Below are positions 24,097-64,000 of a stretch of 64,000 nucleotides of DNA, one piece after another. The stretch is taken from positions 13,268,001 to 13,332,000 of the forward strand of contig NC_135264.1 of assembly GCF_964204865.1 (NCBI RefSeq), given 5' to 3'. Numbering within the stretch: position 1 is the stretch's first letter; each line of letters opens with the position of its first letter. Origin of the DNA: Styela clava (Eukaryota). The notes under the pieces are model-generated. The model was not told the origin of the DNA. It searched no databases and saw only the letters and a list, made by a program, of their open reading frames with translations. The translations under genes were made by a program, and so were the position numbers.

Positions 24097-24829
24097 GAGA
24101 CAATGGCGCGATTAAGAGACAATGGCGCACTTACCCCAAAAAATAGCTTGTTACGAAAATGCATTGAAGACGTTAGTGCCCTGAACTTAAATCGAAGAAC
24201 ATCATCACAAAAAATTATGAAAAAAAAAATTCTTATAATAATCAATTGTGGAGTTGAATGTTGTCACACATTTTCGTAAGCAAGCTCGTGTCATGTAAGC
24301 GTAAGAATATTCAATGTGCAGTAGTATGGATATATTTCAATTTTGTCCAAGTTTTGTTTTTAAGCTGCATTAAATATTTCAATAAAAAACCTCACTTTGA
24401 ATTTCGTATTTTTTCTGGTTGTTCAACATTTCATTACGGCGAATGAGAAATATATTAGGCCTCATAGTTTTAGTTTGTTCTAAGTTAAGTGATGTTCGTT
24501 ATCTCATATCAAACGTTTGGTATATTTTAAAACTTATTTTCACTTTGAGTCATGTTCTGTTTAATTTTTATTTTTTGGTGATCATGCATTAATTAAAGAG
24601 CTTGTGCTCTATACTTGATTTAAAAACAAATCATTCAATATTTTTAAATTTTTATCGAATAGCCTCAAATCGAATATTTGAGCAACAAATATTACTAGTT
24701 ATGTATATATTCTTATTATTTGATTAAAACTGACTTTTTTCTGACAGCCAATAGGGACACGTACGTTGGTATTTGGCCGGCAAACGGTTGGGTTTTGAAA
24801 CAGTTACTAGTATTTTCGTTGAAATACAA

Positions 24830-34997: not shown

Positions 34998-35836
34998 TTA
35001 TATTGCGGTTTGTGGTGTTTCTAGTAAGAATTTACTGAACTTGTCGTAGTTAAGAATTCCATTTGTTTCCTCCTGTCCTTGCATCATTGCTGATACTTGA
35101 GCAGATGTCAACTTTTCTCCTGAAAGAGAAATCATATAACAAGATAAGATTTGTTCTTCCAAACGATTCTAAATTAATTCCAAATGATGAACCGATAAGA
35201 CGATATAAGTTGTTTCATGGGGCTGTCAGGTATGGCATGAGAATAGCTTAGAAAAGTCAAAATGTTTCACTAAACACGAAATTAATTATTGCATTATCAA
35301 AAGTATTGGATTAAGGATTTAATATTAAAGGTTTATTTTAGTAGCCGCTTTTAACTCTGGGGAATTTTGAGTTTGTAGTATTCAGTGAAATTGTAGAAAT
35401 GGTGTTTTAATATAATCAAAACATGTTGTTACAATAATATTTCATGCGTTTGTTTGTTTAAAGAAAAAAATCAATTGAAAAAATTACCCAGAGTTGTCAG
35501 AACGTGTCTGATTTCAGCACCCATGACAGTGCCGTTGCCGTCTTTGTCAAAAACTCTCAATCCTTCCATGAAATCTTCATAAGTTCCTTTGACAGATTCT
35601 TGAATAATTTTAGTGTAGATAGGCAAAAATTCTTCAAGTCCTATTTTCTTTGCCAAGTCGTCTTTACACGGATTTCCCAGCATTTTATCAACATCTTCGT
35701 TCGTTGGACATTCTCCCAAAGCTCTCACGATGTCACCGACTTGATTGAGAGCGATCTTGTTGTCGCCGTCTTTATCGAAAAGCTCAATGGCTTCCTTGAT
35801 GTCTTCCATTTGTTGTTCGTTGAATTCGATTGCCAT
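34998..35836 (-). CDS. Alkali (essential) myosin light chain, copy 1, 156 aa. Exons 35836-35488, 35119-34998
   Basis: [61 protein letters not shown] (MYL1/3/6-type). Confidence 0.95.
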
Positions 35837-37330
35837 TGTTTAGTTGTGATGGTTACTTCTTGCTAGGATATCCAAAGTTAGAATGATAATTTCAGGAAGC
35901 CCTGAGCGGTATTTATACCTAATCGTACACCATTCATTAACACCCCAACCAACACCAATTTGTGCTAAACAGTGTTAAATAGTACTTCCACCGCGAACTT
36001 CCATTCACCCCAAAAGGGGAAAATCATTTAAGACCATGACCGTTGTTTTATAATAAAGTATATTGACTTAAAAGAATTCGTCAACATGCTCGGTAAATAT
36101 TTACGAATAAAATGAAGAAGTGCGATATCTCAGAAATTTAGACAAAATAGAGTTAAATCAACAATAGTGTCTCCAGCTTGTTAATGCCTGCAGACAATTG
36201 ATCAAATATTTATTCATTCGCCGTATTCGGGTATTATTTAAATTGAAAGTTAAAGATGTTTAAGTAATAGCAGATTGATCACGATTCTCTTCATAACTTC
36301 TCACAGGGGAGAGTAATTTTTATAATACTCCATGAATCTTTAATAAAGATTAGATCCGTAGAACTTCGTAACGCTTGCCCGTTTGTTTGTTTCATTGTGT
36401 GTATTTTTTTCAGTAAAATCAATGACCACGTCGTAACGCTGACCTCCACAGAATTTCCCTCGCTTTTTAGAGGGGGGGGGGGGGGGGGGGGGGAGGGGGG
36501 CACATGTGAATTTGCGTCAAATATTTCATCAAATATTTATCTTTTATCACAAACATCCTACGCGAAAAAACACACATACATGTTCGAATAGAGATAGTTC
36601 GTCGTTTAACATGGGTTGCAATGTACATTCTTTACAGACAATAGGTAATACTCATTTCAACTTCAACAAAAAGGAATTGTCAATCTGATATTAAATTTTT
36701 TTTTATATGATTCAAGTAAACGGATTTATGTTTCAACCTGCAATGCTAAGTAAATTCCTAAAATGCGTTTTAGTAGCATTAAAACTAGTTTTAAATATTG
36801 AATTACTTATCTCGACCATTCAAGCTATGAAAGTCCGCGTAATTCATTTCAAACCTAACTTGAAAATGGATGAAAACCTGGCAATAATAAGTACTCACTC
36901 ATCTCCTAATATATATCAACCGTTTTGAAATATTGTTGAAACCCTTGTTAAAATTCACAAAATTAATGGAACTTTATGACGAGGTTCATAGAGATTATGT
37001 CTTTTATTGAAAAGCTTCGGACAGCATTCACAAAAGTCGAAATACTCGATAAAAATATCACCATCCTCCATCATATCCAAAACCAGCGAATATTTTCAAG
37101 TCATTATTTCCCTATTGCACTTTATTAAAGGGCAAAGGTCGTACATAGTCTTAGGCTATTTATCACCTTTTAGGATAAAGAAAAGTTCAGGTTCAATAAA
37201 GAAAAGTTCAGAAAGATTCAGTTCTGAAATCATCAGGTATTCGAAAATGCTTAGCCCTACAAACAGGAAGGGTACTAGTTCTGCACTTGTGTCGTACACA
37301 TATGTATTTATTTACTAATCCCACATTCAG

Positions 37331-39101
37331 GCCTATGATTGAACTATGTATACCATCAACTGTGGACACCACACTTGCACCGAAAGGCCATCACGTTCTA
37401 TCTGTATTTACTCAATATACACCTTATTACTTGAATGGAACACAAGAATGGACAGACTCTGATCGCGACAATTATCGTAAAATAGGTGACCGTGATAGAT
37501 AAAGTTTCACTTTTCCTCTAACGAATCTGCGGTACTACCGTAGTGTGTGTACCAGGTTTGGATATTCCAATTTTCCTTGTTTTAGTTCTATTACGAGTTT
37601 GGGGACTGTCTGTGTTATCCAAGTGAATATACCCCCTGCCCACAGGCTTCAGTCACTTCACACAACTTGATGTAGAATAGGCGAACAAAATTAGTTACCT
37701 CCATATTGGTGCACACACTTTTGAAGCGCCGAATCTGCAACGGAGCGTCCTGCTGCACACTAACACAAATATTTTCTGTACCAAACCAAAGTCTGACTTC
37801 CTTCGACATATATTATTATTCAACTACAACAAGTAGAGAAATTACATGCACATTTAAACAATGGGTGTCATAGCAACATAACAATGTCATACCAATGGGA
37901 GTTAAGCAATTTGACGAATCACTAGAGTCGGTGATTGTATAATCAATTAACAGCGGGACACTGCGATGATGTATTTGATAGATTGTACAGATCTAACCTA
38001 TTGCAGTATTTTAAACTTACATACTTTCCATTTATTTTTAAAAGTGTCCATACAAAATGTTGACTTGTTTTCTTTTAACACTAACTATCTGTTTGTCAGT
38101 GTTCAAAAGTATTGAAGATTATGCACCTGGTTTCATTGATAGCGTTGTTGGTTACGAAGTTCTGACGCCGATGGATTTAGAAAATACTTTTGGATTAACA
38201 GGAGGGGTAAGCAATAATTAAGTTATTTGGAAGTTTTGAGCTGACGGACATTTGGTTGGTTAATTGAATATGTTGAGTGGGCAAAAACTGCAAAAAAACA
38301 CGCTAAAACGTGCAAAAAGTGTGTTTTTGTGGTTTTAGACGGCTTTTGCACGTTTTGGACACGCTAAAATGGGTATAAACCGTCCAAAACACGCTAAAAC
38401 GTACAAAAAAGCGTATTTTTGGTGGTTTTAGACGGCTTTTGCACGTATTAGACACGCTAGTACGTGTATAAACCGTCCAAAACACGCTAAAACGTGCAAA
38501 AGGCGTGTTTTGATAGTTTTAGACTCTTAAAACACAATGAATAGAAATTTCAATGAAACATAGCACTGTTTGAATACATATTTAGAATATTTTCCACGGT
38601 GCAATTGGTTTGGATCAGCTTTTTCTATCTCGACCAACCTCGTTCATGGCATCGCAGAGAACGCCCTTACAAGGATTATACATATGTGGAAGTGGAACAC
38701 ATCCCGGTATGTTTTTACATTTGTCTTACACTCTTAAAAGTTTAATCTAACTTTATACTTTAACGTACGTACATCTTTCAGTGCTACATCTTAACGTACA
38801 TCTTTCAGTGCTATGTATTTTCAATAATGTTATTATGCGTATACTTGAAAAGTCTCTAGTTTTTCTCAAATACTTAAAAACTATTCAATGTAATATATCT
38901 ACGACTGTAAAATTAGAAAACTCTTTAATCTGGTATTTTTTACCAATTTATATAAATTCTTGTACCAACAAAACAAAATCCTAAAAATCAGTTTTCTTGT
39001 TATTTATAGGCGGAGGAGTCATGGGCGCATGTGGAAGACTGGGAGCAATGGCGGTTTTATCTGATCTCAAATCGAAAAAAATATCAAAGAATTTATCGTA
39101 A
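37331..39101 (+). other. Duplicated last four PYROXD2 exons (promoterless, reading frames and splice sites intact)
   Basis: Copy of 32971-34708; ends in KKISKNLS* versus KKISKNSS*. Confidence 0.85.
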
Positions 39102-39408
39102 AATAACTGAACTGGGAAATTCAGCTTTTCGATTCTAGTAGCATTTCAGGCGATCAGTATAGCAAAAATTGATTATATGGTGAACACACTGAATATATTT
39201 ACACCCAACTAAATCTAAGATCTATCTTTGCGCAAAACGTTTCATATGTAATTGTGATTTCCTTCACAGCTGCACTTTTCCCTTATGTTTGAGTCTAATA
39301 ATTTAAAGTTTTTTGATAACACAAAAGACGGAGAATGCTTCACTTAGAAATATATTGTGATGGAAAGATAAAATCATTGGAAAAATTCAAACACGGAAGA
39401 TCATTCTT

Positions 39409-40253
39409 TTATATGGCGGTTTGTGGTGTCTCCAGTAAGAATTTACTGAATTTGTCGTAGTTAAGAATTCCATTTGTTTCCTCCTGTCCTTGCATCATTG
39501 CTGACACTTGAGCAGATGTCAACTTTTCTCCTGAAAGAGAAATCATATTACAAGATAAGATTTGTTCTTCCAAACGATTCTAAATTAATTCCAAATGATG
39601 AACCGATAAGACGACATAATGAGATGTTTCATCGGGTTGTCAGGTATGGTATGAGAATAGCTTAGAAAAGTCAAAATGTTTCACTAAATACGAAATTAAT
39701 TATTGCATTATCAAAAGTATTGGAATAAGGATTTAATATTAAAGGTTTATTTTAGTAGCCGCTTTCAACTGTGGTGAATTTTGAGTTTGTATAGTTTTCA
39801 GTGAAATAGTAGAAATGGTGTTTTAATATAATCAAAACATGTTGTTATAATAAAATTTCATGCGTTTGTTTGTTTAAAGAAATAAATCAATTAAAACAAA
39901 TTACCCAGAGTTGTCAGAACGTGTCTGATTTCAGCTCCCATGACAGTGCCGTTGCCGTCTTTGTCAAAAACTCTCAATCCTTCCATGAAATCTTCATAAG
40001 TTCCTTTGACAGATTCTTGAATAATTTTAGTGTAGATAGGCAAAAATTCTTCAAGTCCTATTTTCTTTGCCAAGTCGTCTTTACACGGATTTCCCAGCAT
40101 TTTATCGACATCTTCGTTCGTTGGACATTCTCCCAAAGCTCTCACGATGTCACCGACTTGATTGAGAGCGATCTTGTTGTCGCCGTCTTTATCGAAAAGC
40201 TCAATGGCTTCCTTGATGTCTTCCATTTGTTGTTCGTTGAATTCGATTGCCAT
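39409..40253 (-). CDS. Alkali myosin light chain, copy 2. Exons 40253-39905, 39530-39409
   Basis: Protein reads identical to copy 1; only synonymous changes seen. Confidence 0.95.
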
Positions 40254-41537
40254 TGTTATGATGTGATGGTTACTTCTTGCTAGGATATCCAAAGTTAGAA
40301 TGATAATTTCAGGAAGCCCTGAGCGGTATTTATACCTAATCGTACACCATTCATTAACACCCCAACACCAATTTGTGCTAAATAGTACTTCCACCGCGAA
40401 CTTTTATCCACCCCAAAAGGGGTAAAATCATTTAAGACTATGACCGTTGTTTTATAATAAAGTATATTGAGTTAAAAGAATTCGTCAACATGCCCGGTAA
40501 ATATTTACGAATAAAATAAAGAAGTGCAAAATCGCAGAGATATAGCCGGAATAGAGACAATTCCACTAGAAAGGCCATAAGCCTTTTAATGCCTACAGAG
40601 AATTTATCAATTTTTTATTCATTCGACTTAGTCGGGTATTATTTGAATTGAAAGTTAAAGATGTTCAAGTAATAGCAGATTGATCACGATTCTCTTCATA
40701 ACTTCTTAGAAAATTAGATCCTTAGAACTTCGTAACGCTTGCCCGTTTGTTTTGTTTCATTGTGGGTATTTTTTTCAGTAAAATCAATGACCGCGTCGTA
40801 ACGCTGACCACCACAGAATTTCCCTCGCTTTTTAGAGGGGGGGGGGGGGAGGCACATGTGAATTTGCGTCAAATATTTTAATCTTTTTTCACAAACATCC
40901 TACGCGACAAAACACACATACATGTTTGAATAGATATAGTTCGTCGTTTAACATGGGTTGCAATGTACATTCTTTACAGACAATCGATAATACTCATTTC
41001 AACCTCAACAAAAAGGAATTGTCAATTTGATATTAAACTAAAATCGAAAATGTTTTTATATGATTCAAGTAAACGGATTTATGTTTCAACCTGCAATGCT
41101 AAGTAAATTCCTAAAATGCGTTTTAGTAGCATTAAAACTAGTTTAAATATTGAATTACTTATCTCGACCATTCAAGCTATGAAAGTCCGCGTAATTCATT
41201 TCAGACCTAACTTGAAAATGAATGGTACTCACTCATCTCCTAATATATATCAACTGTTTTAGAATATTGTTGAAACTCTAGTTAAAATTAACAAAATTAA
41301 TGGAACTTTATGACGAGGGTCATAGAGCTTATGTCGTTTATTGAAAAGTCGGTGTTGTGGACAGCATCCACAAAAGTCGAAACACTCGATACAAATATCA
41401 CCATCCTTCATCATATCCAAAACCAGCGAATATTTTCAAGTTATTATTTCCCTATTGCACTTTATTAAAGGGCAAAGGTCGTACATAGTCTTAAGCTATT
41501 TATCACCTTTTAGGATAAAGAAAAGTTCAGGTCGGAA

Positions 41538-41608
41538 GTGCCAACACCTTTTCAAGACAGCAAACGGTGCTGGGGTGTTAATGAACGGTATGCGATTAAG
41601 TATAAATA
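41538..41608 (+). promoter_or_regulatory. MLC proximal promoter: T-box-like GGGGTGTTAATGAA plus TATAAATA (equivalents at ~35910-35946, 40327-40363, 45258-45293)
   Basis: The same 14-mer sits 14-15 bp upstream of TATAAATA in all four MLC copies, although the intervening and flanking DNA of copies 3 and 4 has diverged. Confidence 0.7.
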
Positions 41609-41681
41609 ATGCTCAGTTCTCCAAAAAGTTATCATTCTAACTTTGGATATCCCATCAAGAAGTAACCATCACAACAGAACA

Positions 41682-42470
41682 ATGGCAATCGAATTCAACG
41701 AACAGCAAATGGAAGACATCAAGGAAGCCATTGAGCTTTTCGACAAAGACGGCGACAACAAGATCGCTCTCAATCAAGTCGGTGACATCGTGAGAGCTTT
41801 GGGGGAATGTCCAACGAACGAAGATGTTGATAAAATGTTGGGAAATCCGTGTAAAGAAGACCTGGCAAAAAAGATAGGAATTGAAGAATTTTTGCCTATC
41901 TTCACTAAAATTATTCAAGAATCTGTCAAAGGAACTTATGAAGATTTCATGGAGGGATTGAGAGTTTTCGACAAAGACGGTAACGGCACTGTCATGGGAG
42001 CTGAAATCCGACACGTTTTGACAACTCTAGGTAATTTGCGTTAATTGATTTATTCCTTTAACCAAACAAACGTGTTAAATTTCAAATGATGAATATTATT
42101 TTGCAACAACGAGTCTTGATTTAAATAAAACACCATCTCTACTATTTCACTGAAAACTACGAACGAAAATTTACCACAGTTGTAAGCTATTACTCGACTG
42201 AACCTTTAATACTGAGCAATGAATTCAATATTAAATTCTTGATTGTTCAGCTATTCTCATACCAGACCTAATAACTCTGTGAATTGACATGGTTAACTCT
42301 CTAATTATTGCCACTGTCAAGTAGAATGAAAAAATTTTTTTTTTGCAGGAGAAAAGTTGACATCTGCTCAAGTATCAGCAATGATGCAAGGACAGGAAGA
42401 AACGAATGGAAGTCTCAACTATGACAAATTTAGTAAATACCTTCTAGAAACACCACAAACTGCCATATAG
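41682..42470 (+). CDS. Alkali myosin light chain, copy 3. Exons 41682-42030, 42349-42470
   Basis: Same exon sizes (349+122) as the other copies; head-to-head with copy 2. Confidence 0.95.
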
Positions 42471-43978
42471 AAAAGAGAAACGATTTTTCGTGTTTGACTT
42501 TGTGAAATGATATGATTCTGTAGAACAATATAATATTCTGCTATTGGATATTTGGACTAGAAGTTTTAAGTTTTGGCGAGTGTAGAATCCGGACAGGCTG
42601 CTTTGCTTAATCAGTAAGCTGGACTTCGAAAGACTCAGTTCAATTGATTTGAATCTGATATTGGAAATGTACTAGGTACACATAATTGCAACGTTAAAAT
42701 TAAATTTGAGTAGTTAAATCAAAGAAGCAATAGCAGTGAATTTACTCAGGTCAAGTTAATACTCTGATAAACACGACGGAAAAGCAAGTAGAATGACGGC
42801 TACTATAAAAAAAATTAAAAATTATTAATAAACATTTAGCAGATTAAAAACTCCTAAACAAGTCAGGAAAATTTGACTCCCGTAAACAAAACAACATTGA
42901 AATAACCAAATGCGAGAACCAGAGATCCAACGTGCGCCTCGAATGTAGATTGCAGGAATGCGGTTGTAAAGCGTGATGGAGCCAAACACACGTGACAGAG
43001 TATAATGCGTTGCCAGATTTCATAAAAAGGTGGCAATGATTTAAAATGAAACAGCAATTTTTTTGGTTGATATGTCGGATTTTTAAAACTCGGAAAATTT
43101 GAAAAATAAAATAAAAATAATAGCTTTTCAGCTGCTTCAATCATCTTTGGGCACTGATTTAATTTAAAATCAATTGAGGTCGACTAGTTACGAAAAAGGC
43201 GATTTTTTACAAACGTTTTCTATGAAGCTAATCTCGACGCGCGCACATCCAATTGGGGCCGTTTTCTAGGGTGACACTTTTATCACTTCTTTACCGGTAT
43301 TGAATAAAACGCCACTGGGAAACACAATCCCCACCGTGTTAACAATATCGATCCATAGTATGCATATTATTCCTATTCAACAAGACCAATTCATGAACAT
43401 AACTACCATAAGCGTTGATATCTTTAGTAGGAAGCCCAAGGCAAAAAAGGTGAGATATCAGAAAAACACGTCATGTTATAAGTACTGAAAATTGCGTTCG
43501 AACCGTTTTAATTAATCGTGTGTTCGCTTTTCCAAACCCTGACACTGCTGATTTCGATCAATGAATAGAAAATTGTAACTGGTTAATTACATTTTTTATT
43601 TAGAGTGGTGACGGGGGTGAGAACTGTCCGCCTTGAGGTTCACTGATGAAGTATTTTCCGTCAGTTGGCACAATGCCCATTAGTTGGCTGTGCAATTTTT
43701 CAAGTCCAAATCGTCTTTTATTCAGCGCTCAACTTGCTACTCCATGCAGCTGTTGGTGAGTTGCGATATTTACCACCTTTGACAAATTCATAGTTTTGCA
43801 CCGATTGGTACGATTTATCGACTAATGGATGCAAAGTAAGACTAATCTACCACTAACGTCACAATAAAAAAATTCCGCTTAAAAGATACTTTTTTGGGAC
43901 CAAACTCTTTTCCTTTTTTTATTCACCAACAGTGTTTTACAGGCTTGTCCACGAGAATGAAATTTCCTATGAGAAACG

Positions 43979-44274
43979 TCCTATGTGATGGAATGGGACA
44001 GCAAACATTTGTATTTCCCATGGCACAATAGACATGATAGAGCAATTTGATTACGTCGAAGCTAACTTCTGTCTTTATACTTTTTCACCTTTCAAGTGTT
44101 TTCACTCTCCTCTTTCTTGATATACTTGTATATATCTATTATTTATTTTGTGATGAGGCACAGACAGGGTTGTCTATGTCTATGAGACTGGGGTTCGCAT
44201 GGAAATCTCCAGGCTTGTTCTGGGAAACATCCCTTGGATGGAATGAGACAAAAATATGTCCTTTGGACGAGCCT
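43979..44274. mobile_element. hAT-like MITE
   Basis: CAGGCTTGTCCA ... TGGACGAGCCTG inverted ends. Confidence 0.55.
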
Positions 44275-44506
44275 GGTGTTTCATACACCAGATGCTTCAT
44301 ATATACTGGATTTATATACCCAACCATGTAATAAATTTCGATTCATCAAGTTCATTTTTAAGCTTTAATTAGAAATAATAATAAATAACATACAATAACA
44401 GAAGTATATAGTGTAAGAATTCATTTTGTTCAGTATAACCCAAACAAGTAAAAATCCATACACTAACATAAAAAGTCAAGCTAGTTCGTTCTCAACGTTT
44501 TTAAAG

Positions 44507-45175
44507 TTATATTGCCGATTGTGGGTTCTCCAATAAGAATTTGGAGAATTTGTCGTAGTTAAGAATTCCGTTTGTTTCTTCCTGGCCTTGCATCATTGCT
44601 GAAACTTGGGCTGATGTCAACTTTTCTCCTGAAATATATAAATGAATATTGATAAACAAATTGTATTCTTTGCAGTAGAAGAAGCTCTTCATTGCTAATA
44701 AAGATTCCTCGCGAACTGCAGCATATTGTTTGCTGTAAGTGTAAACAATACCCATTTTGTAAGCGTTCGTAGAATCAAACTGTATTTAAAAAAGAAATAA
44801 AGCGAAGTAAAATTAAATAAGTTTACCTAGAGTTGTCAAAACGTGTCTGATTTCAGCTCCCATGACAGTGCCGTTGCCGTCTTTGTCGAAAACTCTCAAT
44901 CCTTCCATGAAATCTTCATAAGTTCCTTTAACAGATTCTTGCATAACTTTAGTGTAGATAGGCAAAAATTCTTCAACTCCTATCTTTTTTGCCAAGTCTT
45001 CTTTACACGGATTTCCCAGCATTTTATCAACATCTTCGTTCGTTGGACATTCTCCCAAAGCTCTCACGATGTCACCGACTTGGTTGAGAGCGATCATGTT
45101 GTCGCCGTCTTTATCGAAAAGCTCAATGGCTTCCTTGATGTCTTCCATTTGTTGATCGCTGAATTCGACGGCCAT
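44507..45175 (-). CDS. Alkali myosin light chain, copy 4 (most divergent). Exons 45175-44827, 44628-44507
   Basis: [25 protein letters not shown]...LLENPQSAI; same intron position. Confidence 0.95.
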
Positions 45176-46346
45176 GTTTTTTTTTCGCTGTTCTATTTGC
45201 TGACTAGACAAGTGAGATCTCTTAGTTGTGAGTGATGCTATCTACTGAACTACAAGGTATTTATACAGAATTGTAGTGTTCATTAACACCCCCGAAAACA
45301 GCTTCAAGCAAAAGGTGTCGGAATATCCGGCGCCACATTGTTAGAAATTGATAAAGGCGTGAAAGTCGAAAGGTAATTCCACGTGTGAAAATGGCTATAC
45401 TGGTGAGATTGCTGCTGCGAAAAAGAACTTTTAATGTAACCTAAATTTGAAACCCACGATTTTATGTGTCATCTCACTACATTCAGTTTGAGCTATTTTA
45501 TTAATAGATATCACATATGATCCTACAGATACATCGCTACTGCAATTTTAAATTGAAGAATTGTCCTGAATGGAATTCCCGATAAACAGGGATACTGGAC
45601 TGATTGAGCGTTTCCGCATTTGCTATAAGCATTGGGTGTAGAGGTAAGATCGAGCCCCAAAAAAATTCAAACCCGGCCCGACTCAGGCCTGTGGGTAATA
45701 AACCCGACTCGAGCCCGATTAATTAACTGGATTTGCAGGCTCGAGTCCGAAGCAAACACGAAATTTCATATTTTACTTAAGAGTATTTTGAATTCCACAC
45801 ATAATTTTAGTATATATATATTTTTTTAAATATATATTTATTTAAAAAAAAGTCCGAGATAGAGGGGCCCAACCCGACCCGAACGTAATGGTTGACATTT
45901 CAGGCTCGGGTCTTCAGATCTTAGCTCCAATTGGGTGGTATGAGCTAGGCAAGGGTCGGCAAACTGCGTCCCGCGTGCCTAATTATTAGCTGCACTCTGA
46001 TTTATGTCGTAACGATGGCTTCTGTACGGCATTTCCTTTGTAGTAAGTAAGCGAAAGCACATGTTAGTTGTATGTAGTTCGCTCTCCGAACGTGCTTTCT
46101 ACTGTCTTATTTGTTATCATCAGTTAAGTTCAGCTTGATATTTAAAATTTGAAAATGGATGGAAAACGTCGAAAAGTCAATGCGGCCCGCACACTACCGG
46201 AAATGTGTATATTTGGCCCATTATTGCATAAAGTTTGCGGCCACAGAGCTATAGAGTAACATGCAATAATGAACCACTGCGCTGAACAAAACGACAATAA
46301 ATCAACAAATTTCCATATAATTTGAAAATTAGTAAACTTAAAATAC

Positions 46347-49300
46347 TCAATAAGATAAATATTTAAGCATCAATAACACAAAAAAACTGGATGTGTAATA
46401 CAATGAACTTGTAAGTTTCCCAGCCCCGTTACGTGATATTGGTTTAGTGGCTTTTGTTAACCAATCATAAACTTCTTGTTTTCCTTGCTTCTTTGCTTCG
46501 GCGCCAACCTTTTCTAGGACTTTGGCGTGGTAATCATTCAAGTAGTTTAACTGTAATATATATCAAAATGATTTTACGGCTATAAAATGGTGTGTAATAA
46601 GACGGTGATCGAGCTGCGAAACCCAAGGTTCAAATATCTAATTAAAAAATTTTCATTTCTAATTAATCGTATCCTACGTAAATATTATCAATTCGCTAGA
46701 ATTTTAATATCTAACAGGACATATCATAGTTTTGGTGCACAAATTATGGCAATTACAAGGACGGAAGCGTTGTTGAAATTTCAATTTTCGACTTGGTTGA
46801 TGAAAAAATGACGCGTTTTCTTTGCTGTTGTCGTGGAAACGAGACTTCAATTCGGATTTTCGATGAAACGAACATTACTAGTGTAACAGGATAACCCACA
46901 AGAAAAATTTCGTACAGATCGGCCCAGCCGTTTAGACGCTACAGCTTCGACAGACATACAGAACGACTGAGAATACGAGTCTCCTAGAGCGGAGATTCGA
47001 TAATAATAATTTTTATAATAACCTACCTGTTTGTCACTAAGTAGGTCCGAATCAATCATTTTAGCTTGAAAAGGAACCAGGGTTGCCGATTCAAATGTTA
47101 AATACTGATATTCTCCAAATTGATACTGTAAATATAATTTGTGAATTTGCATAATCTGTATCATGTGTAACATTGATTTCGAGGTACGCACGTAGTATGT
47201 GTACCAGGTTAGGGTTAGGTCATAATTATATTTCACTTTTCTTATTTTAGTTCTCTTACGAGGTCGGGGACTGTTTGTGTTAGCCAAGTGAATATACCCG
47301 CCTGCCCATAGGCTTCCATATAGATACACATACTTCTGGAGCGCCGATCTCGAACCATTGTGAATATTTTGTGTCAAAAGTATCGAATAGTATTAATATT
47401 TGAACAGTACCTCCGTGTTTGCATAAGTAACCATTATGTTATTCTCGTGTCGTATTCCAAATTCACCATCGTGATAATAACCTGGTTCTGTAATTTGAAT
47501 AGTAAAATAATTGATACGTCTTTCAAGAATCACATTAACGAGAAAACATGCAATACAAGTAAGCACCGTATTATACGGCGAGCGAACTGTCAATAAATTG
47601 CTTAGATTGGGTTTTTATTCAAACACAAGGGGCAACGGCTTTTAAAACAATACCGGTACTGGGTTTGAGTGTAGGCAAAGCATAAAACAGGCGCACCGGC
47701 TTACAAGGCGCATGATCGATTTTTGAGAAGAAAAAAGGTACTCCCGAAGTATGTGAACCAAGATGGCGGACACCGGAACGTAATATGTGTACCAGGTTAG
47801 GGTCAGACCATAATTTTATTCCAATTTTTCTTATTTTAGTTCTATTACAAGTTCGGGGACTAGCCAAGTCACTCCCATAGTATTTGTACCTGGAATTATG
47901 GCCTAACCTGGTACACATACTACGTTCCGGTGTTCGCCATCCTGGTTCCTTACTTCGGGAGAACCCTATAAAATACGGTAAGTTGTCACGATACTCGATG
48001 ATTTTTAATCGCGTGACTTAGTTCTTGTCTGCCGCCATTTTACGCTTTCTTGGTGGGGATGTTACTGAGTACCGGTAACGACAGATTATCAGTTAAACAT
48101 TGGAAGCGCCGTGTGTCCATTTCAAAATTGTTTAAACATGAGACTCGTGATAAAGTGTCAGATTGATGAAATCTTTTAACGGTTTCATATAAATAAAAGG
48201 GAAAAGGCTCACCTATGCTTGTGAACATACCAACTTGCAAAGGATATCCGGCGGCTCCTGACGTTCCAATTCCGGGCGGGTCTGCAAAAATATATTTAAT
48301 ATGCTACAGTGCTTATTCAATCTGGTTCACGTTGCAGCACAATACTGAAATGGTTTATTTTAAGGGCGACTTACACTCATGTATACCCAAATAGTGTCCA
48401 ATACCATGGCCGCTACCATGGTTGAAATCCAATCCCACGTCATAAAGGGGCTGTCTTGCCAAAATACCGATATCGTTGCCATCCAAATATTCAGGAAAGA
48501 CAGCAGTTTCAATATCGATTACTCCCATCAAAACTCGTGTAAATGTTTCCTGTCAAAGTTTAAAAAATCAGTGCAGTAGTTCCTACGTTGTTTACCGTCT
48601 TTCCCCGAAAATAAGACCTAGCCTGAATTTTAAAAATGATTTCAATAGCCTTCCCTTTCAAATAAGACCTAGTCGTCGATCTCGTCCCATTTTCGGGGAA
48701 ACGCGGTAGTTATTTTGTGTTACAATGCATACCTTCTGAAAATCTGATGGTGTACCGAAATGCAAGGTTCGTGTTATATCTGTTGTACCCTCAAAATAAT
48801 GTCCACCTGAATCTAACAGATATATTTCATCCAGTGTAAGATTTCGATTCGTGTCTCCAGAGGTCCTAAACATAGACTAGCATTGTGACATTTTAAATAG
48901 AAGATTAGCAGAAGACAGGTAGACACTCACGAATAATGTGGCAAGGCAGCGTTCGGGCCACTTGCTGAGATTGCACCAAAGCTTAGTCCTTTATTAGCTT
49001 GTTGGCTCCGCCTTAAATTGGCAATTTTATTAGCTCCAGTAATTTCATCCACGACACCTTTAGGAACATTTTCCTCCAGCCAGATGAAATATTCGCAAAG
49101 AGCAATGGCATCAAATATCTGAACATTTGGAAGAACTTTATTAAACTGTCATATATATATCGAGATTTATATTAACAGAATCGGAATAAACTAAACGAGG
49201 CATGTATTTGCGTAGTAGATTGAAATCGTAAAAGTTTTCTCGATTCCAGAAATATCTATTTCACATTTCTGTGCGTTTGGTTACTTGCTTTTCAGTATGC

Positions 49301-52300
49301 ACCATGTCCACAGATGGTGGAGTCTTAAATTTGCACCGACTTGATAAGGCGTTTCGGATATTCGTAGTAAATGTACATTTGGTCTTCAGGGGCAGTGTTG
49401 AACTTAATTTATCATATTTTTGTAAATAGACTGCATACTCTATTTCTTCTGCATGGGCAATGACGACAGCAGCATATATACATATATATGTTAAAAAGCG
49501 GATCCATTGATAGTTTTTCATAGAAGCATACCTGAGCTTGCTTCATCCCCTGTCTTTCTATCTCGTTTTTGATTGTTTTTGGTACTTTGATTGGAGATTC
49601 GTCTTGTATTTGTTTGTCCTTAATTAAATGAGGATGGTATGAAGTTAAATTACGCATTTTTTAAAATTAGTTCAAGATAAATATCTAATCTTACCTCAGG
49701 TACAGCGCTAAACATTCCATACGTTGTGCTTGCTGTGCTCATCCATACTGTACTTTGTGTTGGTAACGAGAGCAAGTCATTCCGCGCCTGTGCATAATCA
49801 ATCAATTGGACACAGAGATTCCCGCAACCTGAAACATATCTTGTATATATTATAAATGTGAACGTGTACAGGCTGTTCAGTACAGCATCAAATTAGCCTC
49901 TTTTATTGGACACGAGATGGACCTATAAATCGTTTGTCATTCATATATTTTTCTTCTTCTTGTTGCTGTGAAAAAAAATCGCCTTTCTCTTCAACTACTG
50001 GACCAATTTCAGTGGTTAAAGGTTATTGTTTTCGATAGAAGGCTATTAATTTTATTGATTTGAAAAATATCTATGAGCTATATATATGATATTCGTTTTC
50101 CACTTTGAAGTTTTGTGTGATGTCACTGATGACGTCATCAAATTGAAAAAATTGCGTGCCATGGTTCCTTGATCACATCTCAGTGATATGTCGGTCAGAC
50201 TACCGGTACTGTGAAAGATTTGGAACTACTTCGTTTTAGCTTTCGTGTCTATATATTTGAGCATTGCTCTCATTTTGACATACCTGTCGGTTGTAAGTGG
50301 GCAGTAACTTCTGATGTCTCTGCGAGTGATAGGTTAACGTATAAACGCACATCAGTTCGTCCAACTAGTGCATATGATTCAAATACAGGTGTGTATGGAA
50401 TATCTGTTCCTCGTAAATTGAATAACCCTAAAATATATGTTAAATATATCTTAAAGATTCACAATATCATGCTGATTTCTTTATCTCAGATGCTGACTTG
50501 TTCTCAACCTAGGGCCAACTAAGCAAAGACTTTGCTTGACAATCCTCGCGTGTGCAGAATACACATGCTTGCCTATATACACAGGGTTATAATGGTTAAC
50601 TTTAAAAATTTACACCTAGAAGTTGCGCGGGACCTATGGTGCAACTCACATGCTATTTCATCAAGGAGTGTTAGTAACAGGTAATCGGCGCTCTTTTCTT
50701 CCATTGCTTTTCTTGCGTCGGTAACTTTTTCCTAAATTTGATTATATAATAGGATAGGGTTTACATATTTAGCCCCTGAGGCGAGGAAAATCGGTAAAAC
50801 GGCTATATATATTTTATGGCGAACCACGGCCTCTCGCTCGGGTACCAGTCCACGTCAAGTGTGGGATTAGTTAGCTAGTTTATTATGCAAGTCTCTTACA
50901 GTGATTACGATCTTTATCAGTTGGAAGTGAAAATACAAAGTACAACATTACCTTCCACTCTTTACCGGCATATGCAATTGGAAAAACAATGATTTCCGAT
51001 CCCATTGGTCCTGGTCGATCTGTCCATATACGATCGATAAGATCCGGTATACTTTGGTTAAAGGCAATTCCCGCCTTACTGAACTCGCGTTCGTAGAACT
51101 GCCACCGACCTAAATATAGACATGGTGAAATTGAAGTGGGAAAATTGTATTAACTGCCGTTTTTAGAAATGATGCACTTGAAAAATAGGCGCTTCAGGAG
51201 TATGTGTACCAATATGGAGGTAACTAATTTTGTTTACCTACTTTACATCAAGTTGTGTGATGGAAATAAAACCTAAGGGCATGGGGTATAATCACTTGGC
51301 CAACACAGACAGTCCCCGAACTCGTAATAAAACTAAAATATAGAAAATCGGAATAACATTATGCCCTAACCTGGTACACATACTACGGGAGTACCGAAAA
51401 ATATACACTTCTTACCTATTGAAAGTACAAACGGATTTGCGGCGACTATTGAAGAATTCTCAAGGGATTGTTCTAACCATGCTTGTATAGTTGGAGTTTC
51501 TGGATCGCCTGGAAATGATCGCACATTTAACAAACAAAAAACAGATTTGTTACAGCTGATAAAATATTGACAAATTTGATGACCTGTTCGCATTAATTTC
51601 CAGTTGCAATCCATTTCTCTTTCAGCTTGTATATAATATCGCCCATCAGCCCACAAGGCTGCGTCTGTTTCTGTGATCACGGCTATACCTTGCGATCCAG
51701 AAAATCCCGAAATCCATTCTCTTCGTTTGTATTTCGGTGCGATGTATTCTGACTAGAAAAAGACAAGATTTTTTAGTATTGAATATAAAAATTCCATGAA
51801 TCGACAAGACGAATCATACCAAATGCTCATCTTCTGATGGTACCATGTATGCGTTATATTCAGAACTTCTCATTTCTTGTCGTAGAGAAGATAATCTTGC
51901 TGATGTAATTACCGTAGTTGGGGGTAGATATATATTCTGAAATCAACAATTTAACCGAGTCTGAAGTTACATATTTTTATTGGTACTCCCGTAGTATGTG
52001 AACCAAGATGGCGGACACCGGAACGTAGTATGTGTACCAGGTTAGGATTAGGCTATAATTATATGCCGATTTTCCGTATTTTAGTTCTATTACGAGTTCG
52101 GGGACTAGCCAAGTGACTCCCGTAGTATTTGTACCTGAAATTATGTCGCAACCCTAACTTGGTACACAAAATACGTTCGGTGTCCGCCATATTGGTCCAC
52201 ATACTACGGGAGTACCTTTTTATTTTCAACATACATATTATCTTTCTTACGTTTGGATCGCTGCAATCTCTAATAGAATTATCGTTCTCCCGTAAACTGC

Positions 52301-52577
52301 GTTTAACATGGTGGTGTGAAGTGGTCTCATCCCATATTAGCGAATCCATATGGCTCGGTGAAATTGGCACGCAACATACTGCCAAAATGGAAACTGGAAA
52401 AAAGTAAATATGATTAAAGTATCACAAAGTAAAATGAGTTATCAAGATTTGTAGAATAAAATTAACTTCAAATTTACAATAGGAGAACTTAAACTACCAT
52501 GCCTTAATCTTGATTATATACCTCTGTATAAAACGGCACTTACCGTACACTAGTAAGATCAAACGCAATGCCATCAT
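46347..52577 (-). CDS. Xaa-Pro aminopeptidase, secreted/GPI-anchored type (XPNPEP2-like), multi-exon
   Basis: Signal peptide ([11 protein letters not shown]...), [86 protein letters not shown]. Hydrophobic C-terminal GPI-like signal after SRNG. Confidence 0.92.
47183..47345. mobile_element. GGTAC...GCGCC MITE (internally deleted)
   Basis: TSD GATTTCGA / GATCTCGA. Confidence 0.8.
47737..47965. mobile_element. GGTAC MITE subfamily B with longer TIRs (further copies at 51982-52216, ~31448-31613, ~55104-55300)
   Basis: GGTACTCCCG(A/T)AGTATGTGAACCAAGATGGCGGACACCGGAACG is inverted at both ends. The 51982 copy has TSD TTTTTATT. Confidence 0.85.
48593..48709. mobile_element. pogo/Tigger-like MITE
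   Basis: TA-CCGTCTTTCCCCGAAAAT ... ATTTTCGGGGAAACGCGG-TA. Confidence 0.7.
51188..51395. mobile_element. GGTAC...GCGCC MITE (reverse orientation); further copies at 56577-56788 and ~60872-61086
   Basis: Perfect 8-bp TSD GAAAAATA. Confidence 0.88.
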
Positions 52578-59028: not shown

Positions 59029-59862
59029 CTGACTTCATACGTTTAAATTACATTCTTAGGACCATTTATTCTATTCCGACGCGTAAAAATTTTGCGTTCG
59101 TCTTCTTCAGCTGCGAAAAACCGCGAATACACACAAAACAAATCGTAGATAACTAAATTGACAATGTCTGACAATCAACGCGTCTGGAAAGAAGGTGACT
59201 GCAAACAACTTCCCCGTACAAATGAAACAGAGTCAGTACTATGCGTAAAACTCTTTTAATATAATAAATAATTACAGTGCGTATAATTAAAATGTGCAAT
59301 TAAAATTTACGGATTCAAATTTCCATAATAGTCGATTTAAACCATATATATATTGAGAAAAATACTCAAATTATTTCGATTAATGAAAATATGCCGAATA
59401 AACAGTATTACGTATATAATATTTCAGTGAATTATGTAATTGTACATTGAAAAATTATGTTTACGATTATGTAAGTAAATATGACATCATAACAACGAAT
59501 TATCATCATTGGCGTATCTGTTTGCTCCTTTTTTAGCTATATATTATTTAATGTAACTAATCATAAAATGGTCCATGGCCGAGAAAATAGGCAGTCAAGT
59601 GGGATTTAAATTATAATTGGACGATATAATTTCAATTAATATAAAGCTCAGGTAAAATTTCTACAGTTTAATTACAGTAAATAGTGAAACATTCTAAGAA
59701 TTAAGAAAAATAACAAAATAATGACATGTATAATTCATAAGAAAAATTTGCCCGTGTGGCCAACAATGGGTTATATTAAGCAAATCTTGTGAAATTTGAT
59801 TCATTTTCTATGAGCCATTGTGGGTCTTAATATTTAGTGACGTATTGCATCCGTTTGACCTT

Positions 59863-61689
59863 CTATCGGCTTCCGCCTCCAACTTCCGCCATTACGACCT
59901 CTCCATTCATAACATCATCCATAATGTCATCTGTGATTTTTCCAACAAGAAGTAAGTAACCATGCACGTCACCGAAAGCAGTAGATGGTAGTGCGTTAAG
60001 GTTTTCTCCAGAGCGTTTTTCTTGCGTCATTTCAGCACTTCTGCGTAAAAATAGAACGTAAAAACGTGAATGTATCCTACTTTGAATCAAGTTATTTTCG
60101 TTATCTTTTTACGTACATAAATAGAATAATTTGAAAACGTAAATTATCCGCGTGCGTGAAATTGTGGGTAGACGGCATAGTACATGTTATCTCATAACTA
60201 TCGGTATAGGTACTATGAATATTAGATAAGTAAGCTACCCTGTTGTGTATTAACAGAGTCATATAATGTTTCATATATATCGCATTAAAATAAATGTATA
60301 TAATAAAAGATCTCTATTCAATTTCCGACCCTCCGTATTAATAGAAAGCACACAATAACAAATATATTAATTTTGTCAATACATTTGAATTATTTATGTG
60401 AAAAAAAACAAGGTATTATTTTCTTGTCTGTGTTAAGAATAACAACTTGGCTCACTTTGAAAATTACCGATCTTTTGTCAGCGGATTAATTCTTAATTCA
60501 AGATATAAAGTTAGGCATGAGCAAAAGACGTCTGTACCCGTTTGTGGGCATTGGTTTAGCTTTGTGTTTATATTAATAATTACAGTGGATTATGATATTC
60601 TCATCACGTTTCTGCGAAACACATTTGCAAGGCAAATGTCTGTAGTCTTTGAATGATTTGAATAGATTTTGTTTTAAACTTAATTCTAATATTGTTGACC
60701 TAAATTTGCAAATGCAATGTCAGTATTCTCACTTATAGTCTTTTTCAAAGCCACCATCACCAATGCAAAAATATGAGATTTTGGGAAAACATCCCTGCCA
60801 CTTTGTGAGATAAAAAATTATGGAGTATCCAGGGTTAGAGTTACGAATGACTTGAAAATTTGAATTTCCAGTGTACTCCCGTAATATGTGTACCAGGTTA
60901 AGGTTGAGCCATAATTTTATTCAGATTTTCCTTTTTTTTAATTCTATTAAGAGTTTGCGGACTGTTTGTGTCAGCCAGGTGAATACACCCCCTGCCCATA
61001 GGCTTCCGTCCCTTTACTCAACTTGACATAAAGTAGGCTGACAAAATTAGTTACCTCTATATTGGTACAAAAACTTCTGGAGCGCTGTTTCTTAATATAG
61101 AAATCTATACCTTTTGCCGACAAGCATGCTCAAGAGGCGTCTGACAGCAGCACGGTCTTCTCCTCGTCCTCTTTCAGAAGTGTACATTGCATGTGAATAT
61201 CTTTTTTCGGCGATTTCATGTTCTTGACCTGATCGTTTTGCTTCGGATTCTTCGAGTGATGCCAGTTGTCTGAATTAAAGTTGGATTTTAAATTGACACC
61301 AGGCTTTAAGGGAGAAATCTTAACACGTCACATTAATGACAAAATGCTGAGTTCATGGGGATATTTAACAGCTTGCGCTGTATCCAGCCATGTTTGTTTC
61401 AAATATTAGAAACTTCGGGCTAACGATTCATCTTTAGCACGCATCTCCAGAGATGAAATACCACGCTGAATGTAAGACTTGTATTCCCCTAAATGGGAGA
61501 GCTTCTTCTGCATTAAATGCTTATTTGTTCAGTTCACAAATATAAATTATGTCGTAATAATACAAACAGAATTTACCTCATAATTCGTTCCTGTTCAATT
61601 GGTACAATGCTAGCTGATTCTGACAATTTGATGTACGTTGATATCATAAGTAACGCAGTGATGCAGAGAGTAGAAGAAATCGAATTCAT
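59863..61689 (-). CDS. Secretin/PACAP/VIP/glucagon-superfamily prepropeptide, 149 aa. Exons 61689-61577, 61269-61111, 60040-59863
   Basis: MNSISSTLCITALLMISTYIKLSESASIVPIEQERIMR|QLASLEESEAKRSGQEHEIAEKR-YSHAMYTSERGRGEDRAAVRRLLSMLV-GKR|SAEMTQEKRSGENL...: signal peptide, dibasic sites, a 27-mer with amidation signal, and both introns phase 2 GT-AG. Confidence 0.85.
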
Positions 61690-62226
61690 GTTTATAGTTA
61701 GTAGACTTTGAAATACTGTTAAATTATACTTATCTATACTAAAAATAAAACATTGAGTCAAAAATCAGCAGAATATCGTGCTCTCGAGGGTAGAGGTGTT
61801 TACTACATTACAGTTGTTAGTGTGGCATACCAACTGATAAACGTAAAGAAAACAAAATATGAACCATTTCCCTTGGTGAAGCTTCATTGCCATAAAAGTC
61901 AGTAGGTTTTTTCAGAAGATCAAATCTCAATAATCACGTAATGATCCAACTATAAAATCATTTTGCCGTCGAGAAAAGCATTTGTAAATTGGAAAATGCA
62001 CGGAGTATTGAAATAACCCAGACGAGTTTAGTTTTGTTGATCGACAAACGAGCTAATCAACAATACCGATTCCAGATAGCAAAAGAATCGATTCAGTATC
62101 ATATTAAAGTTGTGGTAATCCTGTAAACAGACAACTCATCCAAGTACAATCTGAATAAAAGCATTTAATCTATAAAATTCAGTCCTTAGCTAGTCTAGAT
62201 GTTGCTTCTTGGCTTGTCCAGACGCT

Positions 62227-62363
62227 TGAATGACAATGACAAGATGCGCCCCTGTATTTATACCCGCCAGAAGATGGAGGGTTGAATTTTTCTTATCGCT
62301 GTGTATTCACTGGTTGCTGGGGCAACAGAAAAAAATGTGCGTGTCGTGCGTCATTTTTTGACG
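62227..62363 (-). promoter_or_regulatory. Promoter of the peptide gene: Inr-like TCATTC (~62227-62232), TATAAATA (62255-62262), inverted CRE half-sites (62349-62363)
   Basis: Motifs read directly; TATA-to-Inr spacing is canonical. A splice acceptor (TTTAACAG) ~27 nt before the ATG implies a non-coding first exon. Confidence 0.65.
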
Positions 62364-64000
62364 CAAACGGAAATCTTCGTGCTAATTTTCTGAGTGGACA
62401 AGATGGCTATATGCTATAAATGACCACTATGTAAACTGACACCATATGGAGTCGGATTTTTCACAATATCTAAGAGGACTCTTTCGAAATATTAAAACAA
62501 AGTTACGCATTCTGAAGAAATCAAATAGCTCAACAATTGTTTGCAAATCGTCATAATCGGAAGATTGAATTTTTCTTGTCACCTGTTCGGTTGTCACACC
62601 CTGCATTACTTAGCAACACAGGAAATTTTGATCCAATCGCGTGCTTGACCTCGTTCACGACGGTTCATTTTAATCACGTCATCGAGATAATTATCATACA
62701 ATTAATTGGTGGCAAGTAGACTTGCACGTAATTGACAAAAATCAATTCCGTAATTACGGCCAAATCGATTACGTAATGACCCCGTAATTGCGATATTTTT
62801 TTCACACATTTAAACCTATCATAACAATCAATTTAATCTACTTCTATTCCGAATGGGACATCGAAGTTTGGTTTTCATATTCCCGGCAGTAGGACTACAC
62901 GCCGGCGACAGATGTTAAAGAAAAATATCAAGGAGTGAATTCAAAATAATTTTATTCTGATTTTTATCTTTTGTATTAGTTTTGATTTTTTTTTACCCAC
63001 TTTATCACCAAATTTTATGCGATCAATTTTATCATTACCAACACTGGTAATATATTTAAGAAACGATAGTTCGCTTTTTTAAAATCGTATTAACGTATTA
63101 ATACGACCTTCGTATTAAATAAAAATTCCGGGTTGCTAATTTATTAATCAACTACAAGCGTATTCTCTCGTTTGATTATACTTTCGCTTGCCTCGCGACG
63201 AAGACTTGTTATTTCACCGTTTTTTACAATATCCGATTTTACTACTTAGTTAGCATTTTATATTAATTATTGATGCCGACTTATTGACGATATTCCGAAT
63301 TCCATGCTTCATTTTACATTAAATCATTTCGCGGCCTAAAAGTTATAACATTATTTGCGATAAATTTAGATCAAATATTAATTATTTGCGCATTATTTAA
63401 AATACGGTACTTATATGACATGCCTTCTCCGAAAATACAAAGTTATATCGCAAAACAATGCATTTTGTGGCATTTATTTTTCTAATTCAAGTCGACAATC
63501 CTATTTGCCAAGATTGACACAAGTTTGGTCGAGTGCCGGTGGTATTCGAGTCGACGATGAATCAAAATAAGTTGCGCATTTGGTAAAGACAGGTAATCAT
63601 ATTTGGCCGAAAATATTGCGATGCATTGTGAAAAACATATTGAGCAATGCCAAGTCCGGACAGATATGTAACGATAAAATCGGTAACAGAACATCAAGAT
63701 TTTGTAATAGAAAATGGATCTCGCGCAGAATAAACTGGGGAAATCCCGTCGTATTGTTGTTTCTCTGCCGTCTCAATCGCTTTACCGATGCCGAAATGAC
63801 TAAGTTGCGTTGGTTCATTATGCAATTTCTTTTCCGTCTTTATATTGCTGTTTGATAAGCGAGACATTAATTATCACGGCATTTACAAATAGACCATGTT
63901 TTATAAGTTGATCTCTTACATTCTTTAGTCATTTCACCCGAAGAAGTTGAAACCAGGTGTGTTGACGTCCATCGGTCTCAACACAGTTCTATTCCTTATC

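What the first reader, a model, noticed from the sequence alone, without database searches (positions are those of the whole stretch)
62349..62363. VIP-type bipartite CRE (CGTCA-N5-TGACG) upstream of the peptide gene
Seen: CGTCA-TTTTT-TGACG (extended palindrome TGCGTCA...TGACGCA) about 90 bp upstream of the TATA box. Known (from memory): the human VIP cAMP-responsive element consists of two inverted CGTCA motifs 5 bp apart (CGTCATACTGTGACG) in the proximal promoter. Inference: conserved or convergent cAMP/CREB control, possibly a feed-forward loop with a Gs-coupled receptor. It is independent support for the family assignment.
Basis: partly seen in the sequence, partly recalled or inferred. 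Interest (0 to 1): 0.7.

Follow-up and report, generated by a model that had tools for sequence, protein, structure and literature searches.

The report
CRE-like pair before sea-squirt hormone gene
Two facing cAMP-response-type half-sites lie 86 bases upstream of a TATA box in front of a spliced sea-squirt gene for a likely secretin-family hormone; they likely bind a CREB-type protein, but their likeness to the human VIP element is probably convergence or chance and does not show kinship.

Summary
The motif is real (62349-62363; arms extend to 7 bp) and lies in single-copy DNA, 86 nt upstream of a TATAAATA on the minus strand. An initiator-like TCATTC follows at TATA spacing (predicted start 62231), the only such pair in 82 kb. 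The gene is spliced in RNA-like contigs of three studies and encodes a 149-aa Styela clava precursor with a predicted 27-residue amidated peptide. A language-model search places it with VIP/GHRH precursors (0.91); Pfam and phmmer do not. The genome has two CREB genes with the PKA site. A functional bZIP site is plausible (about 60%; CREB-led about 40%). Against: 5-nt spacing is not favoured (241 copies against 279 and 205 for 4 and 6 nt), nor enriched near TATA boxes. The arms also fit C/EBP-ATF and JUN-ATF3 sites. The start site is unmapped and conservation could not be tested. The motif does not support the family assignment: the peptide has 0 of 4 VIP signature residues and CREs are generic. 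The mRNA is likely trans-spliced, so ordinary 5'RACE or CAGE would miss this promoter. An ordinary kind of element; the gene is the more interesting thing.

The parts
62349..62363 (.). CGTCA-N5-TGACG, two facing CRE half-sites; predicted position -118 to -132
   Evidence: position from the predicted start 62231
62346..62353 (-). TATA-proximal arm, reads TGACGCAC (6 of 8 to the full CRE; one base from the JUN-ATF3 site TGACGCAT)
   Evidence: sequence; site class from PMC5349851 passages
62359..62366 (+). distal arm, reads TGACGCAA (6 of 8 to the full CRE; the CRE-CAAT site of ATF/FOS-C/EBP heterodimers); only copy on this strand in the window
   Evidence: PMC5349851 passages
62255..62262 (-). 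TATAAATA with G+C-rich flanks (0.92); the only minus-strand TATAWA between 61739 and 62750
62228..62233 (-). initiator-like TCATTC; predicted start at the A, 62231, TATA at -31, CA dinucleotide
   Evidence: Ciona TATA at -32 to -29 and CA/TA starts, PMC4691747 passages; TCAKTY consensus recalled
61739..62231 (-). 493-nt 5' segment with no good splice donor and 11 ATGs: likely an outron removed by spliced-leader trans-splicing (inferred)
   Evidence: best donor 6 of 9; 14 unlaid letters beyond the AG at 61740-61739 in one contig; a low-depth unspliced contig over 62003-62141
61577..61738 (-). first retained exon; ATG at 61689; signal-peptide-like N-terminus (judged by eye)
61111..61269 (-). peptide exon; both borders seen as GT-AG joints in RNA-like contigs
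61119..61199 (-). predicted 27-residue mature peptide between KR and GKR (amidation signal), secretin/glucagon-superfamily-like
59251..60040 (-). last exon: C-terminal tail, stop at 59865-59863, 3' UTR covered by contigs to 59251
62415..62422 (+). second TATA-like TATAAATG, 51 nt from the motif, facing a repeat; no transcript seen

Best explanation
The motif is a pair of facing CRE half-sites that likely acts as a proximal CREB-type element of a TATA promoter, which is predicted to drive a spliced gene for a likely secretin-family peptide, and it likely arose independently of the human VIP element. Each arm could hold one bZIP dimer (centres 13 bp apart, T-tract between). PKA phosphorylation of one of the two S. 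clava CREB proteins would recruit co-activators and raise transcription from the predicted start at 62231, so that peptide synthesis follows cAMP or calcium signals in the secreting cell. The primary transcript likely loses a 493-nt outron by trans-splicing. Shown: motif, TATA, initiator-like spacing, single-copy context, two splice joints, CREB genes. Inferred: start site, binding, inducibility, trans-splicing, convergence.
For: Exact pattern has a chance of about 1.3e-4 in a given 200 bp; any half-site pair within 15 nt in any orientation about 0.8%. It is the only facing pair among three non-overlapping half-site pairs within 40 nt in the window. It lies 86 nt from the only strict TATA+TCAKTY pair in 82 kb; a slightly stricter form of that pair occurs about once per Mb per strand (779 in the genome), so one within 1 kb upstream of this gene on the right strand is about a 1e-3 event. 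It meets the CRE/TATA definition (half-site, TATA within 300 bp; PMC5740062 passages) and lies in the 1-150 bp zone where mammalian CREs cluster (PMC1796609). Two CREB-type ORFs with RRPSY and a bZIP exist. The gene is spliced in contigs of 4 of the 4 RNA-like runs laid, from 3 studies (X5, X7, X6, X10).
Against: N5 is not favoured: 279, 241, 205 sites for N4, N5, N6. Among 65 distinct sites with a TATA-like word 65-95 nt away, N5 has 17 against about 14-15 expected (counted by hand; N3 23, N4 8, N6 5, N7 12). TGACG 75-105 nt before TATA+initiator patterns is not enriched (8 against 13 control), and those patterns are themselves at chance level genome-wide (779 against 730). Ciona shows no promoter-proximal bias of canonical CREs (PMC1796609; trans-splicing may have blurred that survey, my inference). 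Neither arm is a full CRE. The motif was picked after the fact. No RNA contig reaches the TATA, and no run gave a listed contig piece over the motif. One of 11 other N5+TATA sites examined also has a strict initiator, and it points antisense into another gene.
Confidence: 0.42

Rival explanations
1. Chance: two common pentamers happen to face each other in a real promoter region and do nothing.
For: 81 half-sites in the window, about a 19% chance of one in any 170 bp; 12 inverted repeats with arms of 7 or more and a 5-nt spacer in this window alone; no spacing preference and no link to TATA patterns genome-wide; selection after the fact.
Against: The facing pair sits in a short G+C-rich, single-copy stretch at a typical distance from the only TATA+initiator in 82 kb; the 7-bp-arm form occurs only twice in 377 Mb.
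Confidence: 0.33
2. A functional bZIP element read by other dimers than CREB: ATF4- or FOS-C/EBP on TGACGCAA and JUN-ATF3 or AP-1 types on TGACGCAC, giving nutrient, stress or PKC control and not cAMP control.
For: TGACGCAA is the conjoined CRE-CAAT site preferred by FOS-CEBPG and used as seed for ATF4-CEBPG; TGACGCAT is an emergent JUN-ATF3 site (PMC5349851 passages). Both arms carry GCA, not the GTCA of a full CRE.
Against: Human specificities; S. clava C/EBP, ATF4 and JUN were not searched for here. CREB also works at half-sites.
Confidence: 0.18
3. Inherited element: the last common ancestor of tunicates and vertebrates had this two-half-site CRE in its secretin-family gene, and human VIP and this gene both kept it.
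For: Same half-site orientation and spacing as the recalled VIP element, in a gene whose product groups with VIP/GHRH precursors by language-model features.
Against: The peptide has 0 of 4 VIP signature residues, 2 of 7 PACAP-like and 2 of 15 GCG-like consensus residues (lists), so it is not a VIP orthologue. No PACAP gene homologue or PACAP receptor was found in tunicate genomes (PMC7251081 passages). Spacer and flanks differ from the recalled VIP element, which lies closer to its TATA. Other vertebrate family genes use other proximal elements (recalled).
Confidence: 0.04
4. The palindrome acts as a DNA hairpin, or serves the plus-strand TATA at 62415.
For: 7-bp stem with a 5-nt loop; the single strand 62341-62372 folds at -7.7 kcal/mol; TATAAATG 51 nt away with CA at the right spacing.
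Against: Such stems are common in the window and too short to extrude from duplex DNA (general knowledge). No RNA contig lies at 62345-62540, a repeat begins near 62700, and the nearest plus-strand gene starts about 6 kb away.
Confidence: 0.03

Closest known systems
Human VIP gene cAMP-responsive enhancer (Tsukada 1987, seen only as a reference entry; Fink 1988, recalled; sequence recalled, not seen in any paper read)
   Same: Two inverted CGTCA motifs 5 nt apart, upstream of a TATA box, in a gene for a secreted class B1-type peptide.
   Different: Spacer is a T-tract; arms extend to TGACGCA, whereas one VIP arm is nearly a full CRE (recalled); it lies about 86 nt from the TATA, further out than in VIP (recalled); the gene is not a VIP orthologue; no function shown.
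CRE/TATA promoters of the CREB Target Gene database (half CRE with a TATA box within 300 bp; PMC5740062)
   Same: Half-sites, TATA within 300 bp, predicted proximal position.
   Different: Conservation class unknown; tunicate, where no positional bias of canonical CREs was found (PMC1796609).
CRE-CAAT site of ATF4-CEBPG and FOS-CEBPG; emergent JUN-ATF3 site (PMC5349851)
   Same: TGACGCAA exact on the distal arm; TGACGCAC one base from TGACGCAT on the proximal arm.
   Different: Lacks the final T of the 10-bp ATF4-CEBPG seed and its first A; human in vitro data only.
Proenkephalin ENKCRE-2 (TGCGTCA; recalled)
   Same: Both arms carry this heptamer; neuropeptide gene promoter.
   Different: Here an inverted pair; not checked in any paper.
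Secretin/glucagon superfamily precursors (Pfam PF00123); amphioxus PACAP/GCG
   Same: Signal-like start, KR...GKR-flanked 27-mer on its own exon, T7, S8, E9, A18, V19, L23, L26; nearest Atlas clusters.
   Different: Lacks H1, D3, F6; no HMM match; one peptide, not three.

Membership tests
VIP-type bipartite CRE | Two inverted CGTCA motifs 5 nt apart | tested here: met
   the reference geometry is recalled
VIP-type bipartite CRE | Lies in the proximal promoter | tested here: inconclusive
   86 nt from a TATA with initiator-like spacing; start not mapped, contigs end at or before 61740 apart from one low-depth piece at 62003-62141
VIP-type bipartite CRE | Belongs to a VIP gene or orthologue | tested here: not met
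   0 of 4 VIP signature residues, 2 of 7 PACAP/VIP shared residues (against lists)
VIP-type bipartite CRE | Conserved in orthologous promoters | not testable with these tools
   no related genomes held; no protein homologue found; no listed contig piece covers the motif
VIP-type bipartite CRE | Both half-sites needed for cAMP induction; binds CREB/ATF | not testable with these tools
   needs reporter and binding assays
CRE/TATA CREB target promoter | [quoted passage not shown] | tested here: met
   definition from PMC5740062
CRE/TATA CREB target promoter | Organism has CREB with the PKA site | tested here: met
   two pKID matches over the cut-off, both ORFs with RRPSY and a C-terminal bZIP
CRE/TATA CREB target promoter | CRE half-sites enriched before TATA promoters in this genome | tested here: not met
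   8 against 13 control; weak test, since most TATA+initiator patterns are chance
CRE-CAAT (ATF/FOS-C/EBP) site | TGACGCAA octamer | tested here: met
   62359-62366; PMC5349851
Secretin/glucagon superfamily precursor (the gene) | Secreted precursor with a dibasic-flanked peptide of about 27 residues on one exon | tested here: met
   signal peptide judged by eye
Secretin/glucagon superfamily precursor (the gene) | Match to PF00123 | tested here: not met
   no Pfam family at E up to 10 for the exon pieces; the genome scan's 2 weak hits are elsewhere; no PDB hit
Secretin/glucagon superfamily precursor (the gene) | Language-model feature similarity to family precursors | tested here: met
   top hits 0.91, 180-181 of 256 features shared; 25 of 30 hits carry PF00123; shuffles reach 0.9 in 4-10 of 100
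Secretin/glucagon superfamily precursor (the gene) | H1 and F6 (and D3) of the receptor-activating N-terminus | tested here: not met
   Y1, H3, Y6; Y1 also occurs in GIP
Secretin/glucagon superfamily precursor (the gene) | Activates a class B1 receptor | not testable with these tools
   candidate PTHR-like and GLP/glucagon-receptor-like exons exist

The most novel reading that the evidence does not exclude
A two-half-site cAMP element has been kept in front of the secretin-family gene since the tunicate-vertebrate ancestor, so this sea-squirt gene shares peptide, promoter and a receptor-cAMP-CREB self-boosting loop with vertebrate VIP.
Probability: 0.04. Interest if true: 0.8.

Novelty: new member of a known kind. 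Interest (0 to 1): 0.3.

Why it matters
If functional, it would tie a candidate tunicate secretin-family hormone to cAMP/CREB control and give a compact promoter (about 150 bp) for reporters in ascidian neuroendocrine cells. It would be one counter-example to the report that promoter-proximal CREs are a vertebrate feature. The larger point is the gene: a 2010 and a 2020 survey found no genuine secretin-family gene in tunicate genomes, and this spliced, unnamed precursor is a candidate. The motif adds little to that case.

Tried and rejected
Conservation: no relatives held; X11 (labelled as another organism) has near-identical pieces, one over 62167-62317 with the TATA unchanged and two differences (62233, 62264), but none over the motif; X12 raw reads were about 1-2 deep there, too thin to list differences. 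No listed holder is on record as RNA; RNA status of X5-X10 is the tool's guess, backed by the spliced contigs. Paralogue promoters: the peptide exon finds only itself in the genome; no homologue in two word-based searches and one exhaustive search. Repeat or transposon origin: rejected, single copy. Acceptor at 61716: rejected, contigs of X5, X7 and X10 read through it. The other 7-bp-arm site (C4) has no TATA within 200 nt. VIP element in print: four searches; none of the 15 listed of 34 papers held the 15-mer, and three look-ups by id were not held. PMC9744568 uses 'CRE' for cis-regulatory element and was not relevant; PMC4223603 passages confirm only that the VIP promoter responds to forskolin. 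A spliced-leader length for Styela was not found in the listing. The neighbour peptide could not be read by the Atlas and shows no pairwise similarity to P0001 (E 0.86). No fold or complex was predicted: it would not bear on a DNA element. No supplements were opened.

Full report
Observation. CGTCA-TTTTT-TGACG stands at 62349-62363 and is the only match in the window; 3 of 100 shuffles had one. The arms extend to TGCGTCA and TGACGCA. The TATA box meant is on the minus strand at 62262-62255, 86 nt away. The stretch 62100-62700 is single copy, and read depth shows a repeat beginning near 62700.

The gene. Three coding exons on the minus strand (61689-61577, 61269-61111, 60040-59863) give a 149-residue open frame. 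The joint 61269/61577 is seen in contigs of X5, X7, X6 and X10, and the joint 60040/61111 in X5 and X7, all with GT-AG ends; these are 4 of the 4 RNA-like runs laid, from three studies, and their RNA status is the tool's guess. A stored protein matches: an uncharacterised Styela clava protein of 149 aa (one residue differs from the window). It holds a 27-mer between KR and GKR. The ESM Atlas places it with VIP and GHRH precursors (0.91; 25 of 30 hits carry PF00123). Pfam, the genome-wide PF00123 scan, PDB and phmmer over 1.8 billion proteins give nothing. Against the residue lists of PMC2880984 (passages) the peptide has 2 of 7 PACAP-like, 2 of 15 GCG-like and 0 of 4 VIP signature residues. 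It is a likely, divergent superfamily member and not a VIP orthologue. PMC7251081 (passages) found no PACAP gene homologue and no PACAP receptor in tunicate genomes, but two glucagon-receptor-type genes in Ciona.

The promoter. TATAAATA is followed by TCATTC so that the TATA lies at -31 from an A in a CA dinucleotide (62231). Ciona TATA boxes lie at -32 to -29 and starts favour CA and TA (PMC4691747, passages). This is the only strict TATA+TCAKTY pair in 82 kb and the only minus-strand TATAWA between 61739 and 62750. It does not match the longer YYANWYY form. Genome-wide a slightly stricter pattern is at chance level (779 against 730 control), so the evidence is its place: about a 1e-3 event within 1 kb upstream of a given gene. 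No contig reaches it. Spliced contigs stop at 61635-61740. The 493 nt between the predicted start and the acceptor at 61738 hold no good donor and 11 ATGs. One X5 contig has 14 unlaid letters beyond the acceptor AG; with the AG that is 16, the length of the Ciona leader, but the letters were not shown and that contig ends in an inverted artefact. Ciona outrons average 438 nt. I infer trans-splicing. Then the mature 5' end cannot map the start (PMC3074122, passages), which undercuts the ordinary CAGE/5'RACE test.

Is the motif more than chance? Locally yes, modestly: 1.3e-4 for the exact pattern in a given 200 bp, about 0.8% for any close pair, about 19% for one half-site in 170 bp, before allowing for choice after the fact. 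Genome-wide the spacing has no standing: 279, 241 and 205 sites for 4, 5 and 6 nt (the reversed controls were 145, 1537 and 138, so the N5 control is uninformative). One search listed 75 rows, which I reduced by hand to 65 sites with a TATA-like word 65-95 nt away: N3 23, N4 8, N5 17, N6 5, N7 12; about 14-15 N5 were expected, and 6 of the 17 are copies of one repeat. I fetched 11 of the other 16 N5 sites (10 unique, 1 of the repeat). One has a strict initiator, and it points antisense into a homeobox gene. None has TATA flanks above 0.50 G+C, against 0.92 here. TGACG 75-105 nt before TATA+initiator patterns: 8 against 13 control. PMC1796609 (abstract and passages) reports no positional bias of canonical CREs in Ciona.

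Who would bind? Two CREB-type genes with RRPSY and a bZIP exist, and CREB works at half-sites. The site fits the CRE/TATA class (PMC5740062, passages). But both arms read TGACGCA: one is the CRE-CAAT octamer of FOS-CEBPG and ATF4-CEBPG, the other is one base from a JUN-ATF3 site (PMC5349851, passages). I put function at about 60%: CREB-led 0.42, other bZIP dimers 0.18.

Family support and loop. CRE half-sites before TATA boxes are a broad class, so the motif cannot assign a family. Only the exact geometry could, and that geometry is not special here, is recalled and was not seen in print, and belongs to one vertebrate paralogue that the peptide does not resemble most. Five HRM matches were found; of the two short ones, one is closest to PTH receptors and one about equally to GLP-2, PTH and GLP-1 receptors. 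A loop needs pairing, Gs coupling and co-expression, none tested.

Novelty. A candidate CRE/TATA element is a known kind. I saw no paper on this gene or promoter in the listings (none of the 15 listed of 3,172 names Styela clava), a limited search. The bioRxiv paper 10.64898/2026.05.04.722589 (passages) still relies on the doubted Chelyosoma sequences. Earlier notes of this scan describe secretin-like peptide genes in another ascidian; they are leads, not support. Verdict: observation confirmed, interpretation partly supported, interest 0.3.

Noticed in passing
window 59251-61738, minus strand: The gene itself: a spliced, unnamed Styela clava precursor of a likely secretin/glucagon-superfamily 27-mer, in a group where published surveys found no such gene. 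More interesting than the motif.
   Followed up: partly
L001:6620-7102 and L002 about 1319-2000, plus strand (6 and 11 kb beyond the motif): Two tandem, mutually similar two-exon genes for small secreted precursors with dibasic sites, head-to-head with the secretin-like gene. The layout (signal peptide split by an intron) recalls PTH-family genes; no Pfam match for the first, no similarity to P0001.
   Followed up: partly
L025:9333 region (C9) and L026:9263 region (C19): Two complete CREs in tandem, 5 nt apart (TGACGTCA-N5-TGACGTCA). The C9 one lies 3.4 kb downstream of an exon of an Islet-type homeobox gene (family recognised by recall) and may be an enhancer.
   Followed up: partly
L011:829-1863 and L012:1237-2190: Both CREB-type genes read as single open frames of over 300 codons from before the pKID to the bZIP, so they look intronless.
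   Followed up: no
window 35471-45241: At least four near-identical myosin light chain-like exons in tandem, interleaved with repeated pieces of the neighbouring oxidoreductase gene (PYROXD2-like by recall, 29206-33901, partly copied at 37200-37502).
   Followed up: no
window 23029-24096 and 24755-25924, plus strand: Two tandem, intronless multi-pass membrane ORFs of 355 and 389 codons that look like orphan seven-helix receptors.
   Followed up: no
window about 46300-52400, minus strand: Exons of an aminopeptidase P-like gene (recognised by recall) downstream of the peptide gene.
   Followed up: no
window 121-2022, minus strand: A 633-codon hAT-type transposase-like frame (recognised by recall).
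   Followed up: no
window 62329-62335, 62336-62348 and 62367-62374: An A-tract, GCGTG/TCGTG words (bHLH-PAS-type cores, recalled) and a CGGAA word (ETS-type core, recalled) flank the motif; they may be co-sites or chance.
   Followed up: no
G000 genome-wide: Several repeat families carry CGTCA-Nk-TGACG (N5 copies on C1, N6 copies on C2, an N3 family with a TATA-like word), which inflates all counts.
   Followed up: partly
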